This document shows, piece by piece, positions 37,600 through 39,594 of a stretch of 64,000 nucleotides of DNA. The stretch is from the human T2T-CHM13v2.0 reference genome, Homo sapiens. The number at the start of each line of letters is the position of its first letter. The stretch's first letter is position 1. The DNA lies in assembly GCF_009914755.1 (NCBI RefSeq), contig NC_060932.1; one strand, given 5' to 3'. The notes beneath the pieces are model-generated. The model ran no database searches. It was not told where the DNA came from and saw only the letters and a list, made by a program, of their open reading frames with translations. Position numbers and translations under genes: made by a program.

Positions 37600-37776
37600 G
37601 CAAGTATTTGTCTCTTTAAATACCCATTTAATAAAATTCTCAAATTGCTTATCTTCACTAAAACAAAGTTCGATTTTTCCACTTACAAGGCAACTGATAT
37701 TTGTAATAAAAAGGTAATCAGAATTCTCTCAAGGAATGGAAACCAAACATGCCATCTTAATCTTGCTCTCTTTTCT

Positions 37777-39218
37777 TTATAATTAACTAATCAATTAATT
37801 TTTTTTATTTCAATAGGTTTTTGAGGAATAGGTGGATTTTGGTAACATGGATAAGTTCTTTAGTGGTGATTTCTGAGATTTTGGTGCAGCCATCACCCAA
37901 GCAGTGTATACTGTACCCAATGTGTAGTCTTTTATACCTCACCTACTCCTATCCTTCCCCTCAATACCCCAAAGTCCATTGTATCATTCTTATGCCTTTG
38001 TGTCCTCATAGCTTAGCTCCCACTTATGAGTGAGAACATATGATATTTGGTTTTCCATTCTTCAAGTGAAGAGTTACTTCACTTAGAATAATGGTCTCAA
38101 ACTCCATCCAGGTTGCTGCGAATGCTATTATTTTGTTCCTTTTAATGGCTGAGTAGTATTCCATGGTGTATATATACATCACACTTTCTTTATTCACTCA
38201 CTGATTGATGGGCATTTGGGCTGGTTCCATATTTTTGCAGTTGCAAATTGTGCTGCTATAAACATTTGTGTTAGCGTCTTTTTATGTAATGACTTTTATA
38301 TAATGACTTCCTCTGGGTAGATTTCCAATAGTGGGATTGCTGGATCAAATGGTAGATCTACTTTTGGTTCTTCAAGAAATTGCCATACTGTTTTTCGTAG
38401 TGGCTGTGCTAGTTTACATTCCCACCAACAACGTAAAAGTGCTCCCCTTTAAGCACATCCATGCCAACATCTATTATTTTTTGATTTTTAAATTATGACC
38501 ATTCTTGCAGGAGTAAGGTGGTATTGCATTGTGGTTTTGATTTACATTTCCCTGATCATTAGTGATGTTGAGCATTTTTTCATATGTTTGTTGGCCATTT
38601 GTATATCTTCTTTTGAGAGTTACCTATTCATGTCCTTAGCCCATGTTTTGATGGAATTCCTTTTTTTCTTGCTGATTTGTTTGGGTTCCTTATAGATTCT
38701 GGATATTAGTTCTTTGTCAGATGCATAGTTTGTGAAGATTTCCTCCCACTCTGTGGGTTATCTGTTTACTCTGCTGATTATATCTTTTGCTTCGCAGAAG
38801 CTTTTAAATTTAATTAAGTCCCTTCTATTTATCTTTGTTTTTATTGCATTTGTTTTTGGGTTCTTGCTCATGAACGCTTTGCCTAAGCCAATGTCTAGAA
38901 TAGTTTCCTGATGTTATATTCTAGAATTTTTATGGTTTCAGGTCTTAAATTTAAGTCTTTGATCCCTCTTGAGTTGATGTTTGTATAAGGTGAGAGATGA
39001 GGATCTGGTTTAATTCTTCTACATATGGCTTGCCAGTTATCCCAGTGCCATTTGTTGAATAGGGTGTCCTTTCCCCATGTTATGTTTTTGTTTGCTTTGT
39101 TGAAGATCAGTTGGCTGTACGTACTTGGCTTTATTTCTGGATTCCCTATTCCATTCCATTGGTCTCTGTGTCTATTTTTATATCAGTACCATGCTGTTTT
39201 GGTGACTTTAGCCTTATT
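37777..39218 (-). mobile_element. 5'-truncated L1PB-like element, antisense
   Basis: T-rich tail at left, then 3'UTR and the end of ORF2; enclosed together with the 5S fragment by a 16-bp TSD at 37761-37776 / 39256-39271. Confidence 0.9.
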
Positions 39219-39258
39219 GTCTATGGCCATACCAGCCTGAATGTGCCCGATCTTGTCT
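39219..39258 (+). pseudogene. 5S rRNA pseudogene fragment (nt 1-40)
   Basis: gtctatggccataccagcctgaatgtgcccgatcttgtct versus human 5S GTCTACGGCCATACCACCCTGAACGCGCCCGATCTCGTCT: 35/40, with four of five mismatches being CpG>TpG. Confidence 0.9.
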
Positions 39259-39594
39259 TGCTCTTTTTTCTAACATTAAAATATCATAATTCACGCTGAA
39301 TACCTTTTAAAATTTCTCTTTACTGATATCATTGACTTTATCTTTTAGAATATTTTCAACCTCTCTTCCTCAGCTTTATGACTGATCCTGTGACCTCAGC
39401 TCTAAACAAATGACATTTTCTCTGTGTCTAGTACTGTTACTGTGTTTCTGTTACAGAAGAAATGAAATAGAAGACAAGATTTTACTCTGAAGGAGTTTAT
39501 CATTTAAATCAGAAAAATCCATCAATTTCTGCTTAGGAGATGACAGAAGTGATGCTGGCATATTATTCTGTTTGTGCCCCACAGCTTCCATTTC

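What the first reader, a model, noticed from the sequence alone, without database searches (positions are those of the whole stretch)
37761..39271. Inverted 5S rRNA-L1 chimera inside a single TSD: possible two-template twin priming
Seen: a 16-bp TSD (tcttgctctcttttct 37761-37776 / tcttgctcttttttct 39256-39271, 15/16) encloses a minus-strand, 5'-truncated L1PB and nt 1-40 of 5S rRNA on the PLUS strand, joined head-to-head at 39218/39219. The truncated 3' end of the 5S piece (TCT) overlaps the first 3 nt of the right TSD. Known: L1/small-RNA chimeras (e.g. U6-L1) are typically co-oriented, and twin priming normally inverts part of the same L1 RNA. Inference: the left target end primed on the L1 poly(A), while the right target end primed internally on a different RNA (5S) through microhomology and copied to its exact 5' end. 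That would mean one integration event used two RNA templates.
Basis: partly seen in the sequence, partly recalled or inferred. Interest (0 to 1): 0.8.

Follow-up and report, generated by a model that had tools for sequence, protein, structure and literature searches.

The report
Antisense 5S rRNA–LINE-1 chimeric insertion
An old LINE-1 copy in an ADAM32 intron carries the first 40 bases of 5S rRNA, in reverse orientation, inside one target-site duplication; this kind of chimera and its twin-priming explanation are already published, so it is a real but ordinary extra example.

Summary
A 16-bp target-site duplication (TSD; 37761-37776 / 39256-39271, 15 of 16) is beyond chance: 0 of 400 shuffles and 0 of 136 control windows reach it. 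It encloses a minus-strand, 5'-truncated LINE-1 with an A-rich tail (37777-39218). It also encloses 5S rRNA nt 1-40 on the plus strand (39219-39258; 35 of 40, E 1.2e-8, 4 of 5 mismatches C>T at CpG). Neither the 5S piece nor the L1 has a TSD of its own.

The geometry fits one L1 integration. The first nick (TT/AGAA) primed on the L1 poly(A). The second DNA end (3'-...AGA) primed on 5S RNA at UCU 38-40.

Law & Burns (Cell Genomics 2026) list 27 5S/LINE-1 chimeras. They are typically antisense, start at 5S nt 1 at the joint, often end near nt 46, are TSD-flanked, and are attributed to twin priming. This locus is not in their table.

My own survey of 73 5S-like sites found five such antisense chimeras and none in sense. 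One published chimera on chr15 shares the L1 breakpoint to within 1 nt.

Verdict: a new member of a known kind.

The parts
37761..37776 (.). Left copy of the target-site duplication (TCTTGCTCTCTTTTCT). Its right edge is where the plus-strand 3'-OH primed on the L1 poly(A).
   Evidence: (0 of 400 shuffles, 0 of 136 control windows).
37777..37806 (-). Remnant of the L1 poly(A) tail. In L1 sense it reads A8 (37799-37806) followed by 22 nt of A/T-rich patterned or decayed tail (37777-37798).
   Evidence: alignment with the 3' ends of 16 related L1 copies, which all end ...GAAAT(A/T)AAA + A-run.
37807..39217 (-). 5'-truncated LINE-1 body (about 1.41 kb: the end of ORF2 plus the 3' UTR), collinear, with no internal inversion.
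   Evidence: 9 long hits with median identity 82.4%, all on the same strand. The subfamily was not determined.
39218..39218 (.). One base (t on the plus strand) at the L1/5S joint that matches neither L1 relatives (a) nor 5S. It may be a substitution or an untemplated nucleotide.
39219..39258 (+). 5S rRNA nt 1-40, antisense to the L1, so the minus strand carries the 5S cDNA. The first 5 nt also match L1 at 4 of 5. The last 3 nt (TCT) are shared with the TSD.
   Evidence: 35 of 40, E 1.2e-8, 4 of 5 mismatches at CpG.
39256..39271 (.). Right copy of the TSD (TCTTGCTCTTTTTTCT). On the minus strand its 3' end (...GCAAGA-3') is the inferred primer for the 5S cDNA.
   Evidence: The priming role is an inference.
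39268..39275 (+). Inferred L1 endonuclease site of the empty target: plus strand ...TTCT/AACA, or TT/AGAA in L1 sense.
   Evidence: Read. It meets the '1T/3A' criterion used in Law & Burns Table S2. The other TSD edge (CAAGA/TTAAG on the minus strand) does not resemble the motif.

Best explanation
This is a fossil of a single LINE-1 target-primed reverse transcription event that used two RNA templates. It is an antisense 5S rRNA/LINE-1 chimeric insertion.

Inferred steps:
1. L1 endonuclease nicked the plus strand at ...TTCT/AACA. The freed 3'-OH primed on the L1 poly(A) and copied about 1.4 kb of L1 RNA.
2. The minus strand was cut 16 bp away. Its 3' end (...GCAAGA-3') paired with UCU (nt 38-40) in loop C of a 5S rRNA molecule. 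That molecule was either intact or already cut near there. The end primed a second cDNA that ran to 5S nt 1.
3. The two cDNAs were joined at a spot where L1 resembles the 5S 5' end (GTATA versus GTCTA), and the gaps were filled, which duplicated the 16-bp target.

Shown: the parts, their strands, the single TSD, the overlaps, and the absence of separate TSDs. Inferred: the order of events and the priming.

I found no evidence of any present function. The element sits in an ADAM32 intron, 162 bp downstream of an exon. The L1 is antisense to the gene.
For: - The 16-bp TSD encloses both parts and is beyond chance.
- There is no TSD round the 5S piece alone. The best match scores 6 and lies 18 nt off, whereas 40 of 73 surveyed 5S fragments have an abutting TSD of their own, against 1 of 400 mismatched control pairs.
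- There is no TSD round the L1 alone; the best match is 5 nt.
- The A-tail abuts the TSD edge that carries the EN-like motif. The 5S piece abuts the other edge.
- The minus strand after the right TSD is the exact complement of 5S nt 40>1, which is what priming from that DNA end would give.
- There is a 3-nt overlap (TCT) between the TSD and 5S nt 38-40. With a 1-nt bulge the target also pairs with nt 41-45.
- In the MFE fold of 5S, nt 37-40 form a hairpin-loop apex.
- The 5S piece starts at nt 1, as expected for run-off at the RNA's 5' end.
- Class evidence from Law & Burns Table S2: 23 of 27 5S/L1 chimeras are antisense, 12 of those 23 end at nt 40-50, and in 18 of 23 the 5S annotation overlaps the adjacent TSD by at least 1 nt, 13 of them by at least 3 nt.
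- In my survey of 73 5S-like sites, 5 abut an antisense L1 without a TSD of their own and 0 abut a sense L1.
- An independent chimera on chr15 has a different TSD and an L1 only 73% identical, yet has the same L1 breakpoint within 1 nt.
Against: - No orthologous empty site could be examined, and the flanks are single-copy in this genome. The single-event claim therefore rests on the TSD and on analogy.
- The TSD/5S overlap is only 3 nt, with a chance of about 1 in 64 for one junction.
- The TSD is T/C-rich.
- Base 39218 is unexplained.
- The L1/5S homeology is imperfect (4 of 5). In 3 of the 6 chimeras I looked at it is weak or absent.
- Nothing here tells whether the template was intact 5S RNA or a pre-cut fragment.
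- The survey sample is biased, because it uses sites resembling this window's decayed 23-mer. My L1 reference covered only the last ~2.9 kb of L1.
Confidence: 0.8

Rival explanations
1. Two separate events produced the arrangement. Either a tailless 5S retropseudogene landed exactly at the 5' edge of an older L1, or an L1 landed beside an older 5S fragment. The 16-bp repeat would then belong to only one of them, or be chance.
For: Stand-alone 5S(1-~42) fragments are very common: 40 of 73 surveyed sites have their own TSD, and Noll et al. 2015 report 555 in human (passages). Several lie inside L1s by accident, for example L081, L083, L084 and L103.
Against: The 5S piece has no TSD of its own and the L1 alone has none. 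The one strong repeat brackets both parts exactly, from the tail edge to the 5S edge. Stand-alone fragments put the A-rich, EN-type end of their TSD next to the 5S 3' end. Here that position holds TCTTGC.
Confidence: 0.05
2. This was one integration event, but the 5S piece was not primed from the target end. A free 5S cDNA or fragment was captured as filler when the L1 5' junction was sealed by end joining.
For: Filler and extra nucleotides occur at L1 5' junctions, and repair by end joining is discussed in Kojima 2010 (passages). Base 39218 and the 2-nt filler in the chr15 chimera show untidy joints.
Against: Capture should give both orientations, yet 23 of 27 published cases and 5 of 5 in my survey are antisense. 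The truncated 5S end usually overlaps the TSD, in 18 of 23 rows, as expected for annealing of a primer. The 5S 5' end, not a random end, faces the L1.
Confidence: 0.1
3. The chimera arose by template switching of ORF2p from L1 RNA to 5S RNA, or by retrotransposition of a ligated 5S-L1 RNA. This is the route proposed for U6/L1 chimeras.
For: This is the accepted route for U6, U3 and 28S chimeras (Law & Burns, passages; Moldovan et al. 2019, search listing only).
Against: Both routes give the small RNA in the same orientation as the L1. Here the plus strand carries antisense L1 followed by sense 5S, so the orientation is wrong.
Confidence: 0.02

Closest known systems
5S rRNA/LINE-1 chimeric insertions (Law & Burns, Cell Genomics 2026, PMC13174262; 27 loci in Table S2)
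   Same: The 5S piece sits directly at the 5' end of a 5'-truncated L1 and is antisense to it. 5S nt 1 lies at the joint and the piece ends at nt 40 (the published range is often 40-50). The TSD is 16 bp (published 7-17) and the site is EN-like. The authors propose twin priming. Three of their rows turned up in my own survey with identical TSD sequences (L061, L074, L116).
   Different: This locus is not among their 27 rows. Their chr8 rows lie at 9.9, 13.7, 105.2 and 138.8 Mb. 'ADAM32' gives 0 hits in the 4 readable spreadsheets. Coordinate prefixes 39252-39256 give 0 hits, while a control number gives 4; the hg38 position I searched for was estimated from a recalled gene start. Their census needs a RepeatMasker 5S annotation within 50 bp, which a 40-nt, 12.5%-diverged piece may lack. 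Their main text has no occurrence of 'microhomology', 'anneal' or 'internal priming'. They lean towards processed 5S fragments.
Classical twin priming of L1 (Ostertag & Kazazian 2001, known to me only as cited; features as summarised by Kojima 2010, PMC2912911, passages)
   Same: There is one TSD and the 5' segment is inverted relative to the poly(A)-bearing segment. There is microhomology between the target end and the inverted segment, and short similarity at the inversion joint.
   Different: In the classical case both segments come from one L1 RNA. Here the inverted segment is a different RNA (5S).
Tailless retropseudogenes of 5S rRNA (Schmitz et al. 2004, as cited; Noll et al. 2015, PMC5322556, passages)
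   Same: The template is the same and so are the 3' end hot spots, near nt 40-42 and nt 90. In my survey 41 and 21 of 73 sites end there. There is no A-tail on the 5S piece. The target is complementary to the RNA at the priming point, and internal priming in single-stranded loops is proposed.
   Different: In those elements the first-strand (endonuclease) nick primes on 5S and the fragment has its own TSD. Here the 5S piece abuts the opposite, second-strand edge of a TSD that it shares with an L1.
U6/L1 chimeras (Buzdin et al. 2002/2003, as cited; Moldovan et al. 2019, search listing only)
   Same: A small Pol III RNA is fused to the 5' end of a 5'-truncated L1 inside one TSD.
   Different: U6 is full length and in sense orientation, which is explained by template switching or RNA ligation. 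Here the RNA is truncated and antisense.

Membership tests
Antisense 5S/LINE-1 chimeric insertion (Law & Burns 2026) | 5S-derived sequence within 50 bp of the 5' end of a LINE-1 | tested here: met
   The distance is 0-1 bp: L1 runs to 39217/39218 and 5S starts at 39219.
Antisense 5S/LINE-1 chimeric insertion (Law & Burns 2026) | 5S is antisense to the L1, with its 5' start at the joint and its 3' end truncated (commonly near nt 46 or 90) | tested here: met
   5S nt 1-40 is on the plus strand and the L1 is on the minus strand. With a 1-nt gap the similarity runs to about nt 46, into the TSD.
Antisense 5S/LINE-1 chimeric insertion (Law & Burns 2026) | One TSD of at least 7 bp flanks the composite, with an EN-like cleavage site | tested here: met
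   The TSD is 16 bp with 15 of 16 matching. The site is TT/AGAA in L1 sense.
Antisense 5S/LINE-1 chimeric insertion (Law & Burns 2026) | Both parts arrive at the same time in a multi-species alignment | not testable with these tools
   No other mammalian genome was available. The flanks are single-copy in this genome.
Classical L1 twin-priming inversion | A single TSD, with the 5' segment inverted relative to the 3' poly(A) segment | tested here: met
Classical L1 twin-priming inversion | Microhomology between the target end and the inverted segment | tested here: met
   TCT (39256-39258) is shared by the TSD and 5S nt 38-40. As it is only 3 nt, it is weak on its own.
Classical L1 twin-priming inversion | Microhomology at the inversion joint | tested here: inconclusive
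   GTCTA (5S) versus GTATA (L1 relatives) matches at 4 of 5, with an unexplained base at 39218.
Classical L1 twin-priming inversion | Both segments copied from the same L1 RNA | tested here: not met
   The inverted segment is 5S rRNA.
Tailless 5S retropseudogene | A TSD of its own abutting both ends of the 5S fragment | tested here: not met
   The best score is 6 and the match lies 18 nt from the 5S start. Positive cases score 9-20.
U6/L1-type template-switch or ligation chimera | Small RNA in the same orientation as the L1 | tested here: not met
   The orientation is opposite.

The most novel reading that the evidence does not exclude
Both joints of antisense 5S/L1 chimeras are guided by base pairing, not by pre-cut RNA ends.

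First joint: the second-strand DNA end anneals inside loop C (or near nt 90) of intact 5S RNA. These are the same hot spots used by first-strand priming in tailless 5S retropseudogenes.

Second joint: the finished 5S cDNA then seeks L1 cDNA sites that resemble the 5S 5' end. This would explain why two independent chimeras, this one and the chr15 one, share an L1 breakpoint to within 1 nt.

The reading would replace the 'processed 5S fragment' idea with internal priming at both DNA ends. It would also imply that 5S RNA is routinely present at L1 integration sites.
Probability: 0.35. Interest if true: 0.4.

Novelty: new member of a known kind. Interest (0 to 1): 0.25.

Why it matters
The locus is a clean natural record of an L1 integration in which the two ends of the broken target each primed reverse transcription on a different RNA. 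That supports the published view that ORF2p can use abundant cellular RNAs at the second DNA end.

It adds three small points. First, the published RepeatMasker-based catalogue is incomplete for short, decayed 5S pieces. Second, the 5S/TSD overlap seen here recurs in most published cases, although the paper's main text does not mention it. Third, two independent chimeras share an L1 breakpoint.

I found no evidence that it matters for ADAM32.

Tried and rejected
- Rfam cmscan on 4 kb and on 111 nt gave no 5S call. Direct alignment to a genomic 5S gene was used instead.
- A pattern search with the intact 5S 40-mer (up to 3 mismatches) gave 224 matches. The 100 listed were all in the chr1 tandem array, so it was useless for dispersed copies. 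It was replaced by the window's own decayed 23-mer.
Smaller stretches were fetched instead.
- A search for a paralogous empty site showed that both flanks are single-copy.
- A search for other copies of the same joint found only the chr15 chimera. Three further hits (L090-L092) proved to be stand-alone fragments, and the 'ttatt' upstream of them is coincidence.
- The TSD of the candidate chimera L100 was not found; the region is complex.
- My simple TSD search failed to recover the short published TSDs of L074 and L061, because the far copies were short or outside the fetched stretch.
- A phrase search 'chr8 392..' in the supplements does not work across the colon, as a control also gave 0 hits. 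It was redone with bare numbers.
- Buzdin et al. 2003 is not held.
- Considered and rejected: a longer 23-bp TSD including ATCTT. It needs an indel, whereas 5S origin needs only one CpG transition.

Full report
**What is there**

The plus strand reads as follows:
- unique intronic DNA;
- TCTTGCTCTCTTTTCT (37761-37776);
- a 30-nt T/A-rich stretch (37777-37806), which is the complement of an A8 run plus a patterned A/T tail;
- about 1.41 kb of antisense LINE-1 (to 39217);
- one odd base (39218);
- GTCTATGGCC...GATCTTGTCT (39219-39258);
- TCTTGCTCTTTTTTCT (39256-39271, overlapping the previous item by TCT);
- unique DNA again.

The window is chr8 of T2T-CHM13 and the site is in an ADAM32 intron (hub annotation). 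The whole assembly could be searched as G000.

**Check of the repeat**

The two 16-mers match at 15 of 16 (family D4). I compared 130 nt round each junction. The longest repeat with at most one mismatch is this one. 0 of 400 shuffles reach 16 nt (their maximum is 15). 0 of 136 other 130-nt windows from the same 64 kb reach it. The copies sit exactly at the outer edges of the tail and of the 5S piece.

**Check of the 5S piece**

Rfam cmscan reports nothing there, which is unsurprising for a 40-nt fragment. I fetched real 5S genes from the chr1 array and read one (L002). Window 39219-39258 aligns without gaps to nt 1-40:
- identity is 35 of 40, blastn E is 1.2e-8, and it is the only hit in the window;
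- the mismatches are at nt 6, 17, 24, 26 and 36, and four of them are C>T at CpG.

That is the decay pattern of an old, unconstrained copy. With one 1-nt gap the similarity continues to about nt 46 (GTC-TGATCT against GTCTTGCTCT). Those bases are also present in the left TSD copy, so they come from the target.

**Check of the L1**

The 269 nt next to the joint find thousands of candidates in the genome. 40 of 6412 were scored, and the best non-self hits are 88-91% identical.
- Against 11 trimmed relatives, the whole segment 39217/39223 to 37799/37813 is collinear on one strand. The 9 long hits have a median identity of 82.4%. The relatives among themselves have a median of 84.3% (n = 122).
- So it is an old L1 with no internal inversion.
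- The 3' end aligns with the relatives up to ...GAAATAAAAAAAA.
- I could not test the label 'L1PB'.

**The joint**

In L1 sense the relatives read ...ACTATAC-T-ATAAGGCC..., and the window reads ...GCCATAGAC-A-ATAAGGCT....
- L1 identity is certain up to 39217.
- 39218 fits neither source.
- 39219-39223 (GTCTA) equals 5S nt 1-5 and matches L1 at 4 of 5.
- 'Head-to-head at 39218/39219' is therefore right to within a few bases, and 5S does begin at or very near nt 1.

**Separate events?**

I ran the same detector on other 5S fragments as positive controls. Many have strong abutting repeats, with scores of 9-20. This locus scores 6, and that match lies 18 nt from the 5S start. An L1-only TSD is also absent; the best match is 5 nt. 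Both flanks are single-copy in the genome, so no paralogous empty site exists. No other species' genome was available, so the orthologous empty-site test remains undone.

**Geometry and mechanism (inference)**

The empty target would read ...CATCTTAA|TCTTGCTCT(C/T)TTTTCT|AACATT...
- The plus-strand cut TTCT/AACA (TT/AGAA in L1 sense) resembles the L1 endonuclease motif and adjoins the A-tail. This is therefore the first-strand priming site.
- The other TSD edge (minus strand ...GCAAGA/TTAAG) does not resemble the motif. It is the second-strand break.
- On the minus strand, that 3' end is followed directly by the complement of 5S nt 40>1. This is exactly what extension of that end on a 5S RNA template would produce.
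- Its last three bases (AGA) pair with UCU 38-40. With one bulged base, AGAGC can also pair with nt 41-45 at 4 of 5 positions.
- In the minimum-free-energy fold of the 5S gene sequence, nt 37-40 and nt 87-90 are hairpin-loop apices.
- Template switching or RNA ligation would give the opposite orientation and is excluded.

**What is already known**

Law & Burns (Cell Genomics 2026; bioRxiv 2025) is the key paper. I read its outline, passages, two short sections and Table S2.
- They catalogue 27 5S/LINE-1 chimeras.
- They state that the 5S start is commonly at the junction, that truncation is at positions 46 and 90, and that 20 of 27 have 7-17-bp TSDs.
- They propose twin priming for antisense chimeras (their Figure 7).

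My count of their sheet gives the following:
- 23 antisense and 4 sense rows;
- 12 of the 23 antisense pieces end at nt 40-50;
- in 18 of 23 the 5S annotation overlaps the adjacent TSD by at least 1 nt, and in 13 of 23 by at least 3 nt.

Their main text contains no occurrence of 'microhomology', 'anneal' or 'internal priming'. They suggest targeted processing of 5S instead.

Two other papers, read as passages, bear on the mechanism.
- Noll et al. 2015 describe 555 human tailless 5S retropseudogenes. These end at hot spots in loops, their target sites are complementary to the RNA end, and the authors favour internal priming.
- Kojima 2010 summarises microhomologies at both joints of twin-primed L1 inversions.

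The two-template twin-priming idea is already in print.

**Is this locus in the catalogue?**

- The 5S sheet has four chr8 rows, at 9.88, 13.72, 105.19 and 138.80 Mb. None is near ADAM32.
- 'ADAM32' gives 0 hits in the four readable spreadsheets.
- Numbers beginning 39252-39256 give 0 hits, while a control number gives 4. My hg38 estimate rests on a recalled gene start.
- Three PDF supplements could not be read.
- Their census requires a RepeatMasker 5S annotation, which may be missing for this short, decayed piece.

**Own survey**

The intact 5S 40-mer returned only the tandem array among the listed rows. I therefore used the window's decayed 23-mer (39236-39258) with up to 2 mismatches.
- It gave 73 sites, against 0 for the reversed pattern.
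- This sample is biased toward old copies with the same CpG decay.

Results:

| Feature | Sites (of 73) |
|---|---|
| 5S 3' end at nt 36-46 | 41 |
| 5S 3' end at nt 84-92 | 21 |
| 5S 3' end at nt 117 or beyond | 5 |
| 5S 3' end at nt 47-60 | 4 |
| 5S 3' end elsewhere | 2 |
| Own abutting TSD | 40 |
| No own TSD, antisense L1 directly abutting | 5 |
| Sense L1 abutting | 0 |
| Neither | 28 |

- The own-TSD control gave 1 of 400 mismatched flank pairs. In 37 of the 40 own-TSD sites the TSD overlaps the 5S 3' end.
- The five antisense cases are this locus, L061, L074, L116 and L100.
- L061, L074 and L116 are Law & Burns rows on chr2, chr18 and chr10, and their TSD sequences agree with the table.
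- L100 is not in their table, and I could not find its TSD.
- For the 28 'neither' sites, my L1 reference covers only the last ~2.9 kb of L1.
- In the four confirmed chimeras, the TSD overlaps 5S by 3, 3, 5-6 and 6 nt.

**A shared breakpoint**

A search with the joint itself (40 of 302 candidates scored) found one site that spans L1, 5S and beyond. It is C15:59388863-59388954, fetched as L089.
- It is the Law & Burns chr15 row (L1PA7, 5S:1-40, TSD AAAAATATGA(C/T)(C/T)).
- Its L1 is only 73% identical to ours over 1280 nt and its TSD is different, so it is an independent event.
- Yet its joint reads ...CTTAT|GTCTATGG, and ours reads ...CCTTAT|T|GTCTATGG. This is the same L1 nucleotide to within one base.
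- L1 relatives read GTATA there, against 5S GTCTA.
- The chr18 chimera (L074) also joins where L1 resembles 5S nt 1-14, at 10 of 14 positions.
- The chr2, chr10 and L100 joints show little or none.

I take this as moderate evidence that the second joint is sometimes guided by similarity. A rough chance estimate for one such coincidence among about 23 antisense cases is a few per cent. This is my own estimate, not a computed test.

**Verdict**

The kind of event and its explanation are published, and this locus is an uncatalogued further example. I found no evidence of present function. What remains open is whether intact 5S RNA is primed internally or a pre-cut fragment is used. Nothing here decides that question.

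Noticed in passing
L089 (G000:C15:59388800-59390450); 5S antisense at 80-119, L1 from 120, TSD copies at 66-77 and 1576-1587: The published chr15 5S/L1PA7 chimera has its L1 breakpoint at the same L1 nucleotide (within 1 nt) as the ADAM32 locus. This is despite a different TSD and an L1 only 73% identical. L1 reads GTATA there, against 5S GTCTA.
   Followed up: partly
L100 (G000:C5:18570339-18570831), 5S nt 9-39 at locus 312-342; also L135: A candidate further antisense 5S/L1 chimera that is not in the Law & Burns 5S sheet. 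Antisense L1 runs up to the 5S piece, and the piece has no TSD of its own. I could not find a composite TSD, and the L1 3' region looks interrupted.
   Followed up: partly
L065 (G000:C11:21119972-21122994, minus orientation), oriented positions ~1399-1524: A circularly permuted 5S copy: nt ~35/38-119 are followed directly by nt 1-41, and the whole is flanked by a ~14-nt TSD (GGAATGGGGGAGTA). It looks like reverse transcription that began in loop C, reached nt 1, and continued on the 3' end of a second (or circular) 5S RNA.
   Followed up: no
L059-L134 (73 sites matching window 39236-39258 with up to 2 mismatches): Most dispersed 5S fragments are stand-alone tailless copies with their own TSD (40 of 73). 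They end at two hot spots, nt 36-46 (41 sites) and nt 84-92 (21 sites). These hot spots coincide with the two hairpin-loop apices in the predicted fold. This is the known class of Noll et al. 2015.
   Followed up: yes
Law & Burns Table S2, sheet '5S' (hg38 coordinates): In 18 of 23 antisense rows the 5S annotation overlaps the adjacent TSD by 1-13 nt. The paper's main text has no occurrence of 'microhomology' or 'anneal'.
   Followed up: partly
window 38280-38307: A 14-nt tandem duplication inside the L1 body: TTTTATGTAATGAC / TTTTATATAATGAC (family D6).
   Followed up: no
window 37753-37757 and 39250-39254: ATCTT occurs just left of both TSD copies. On the right it is 5S nt 32-36 with a CpG transition; on the left it is target DNA. 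Reading it as a longer TSD needs an indel, so I treat it as coincidence.
   Followed up: partly
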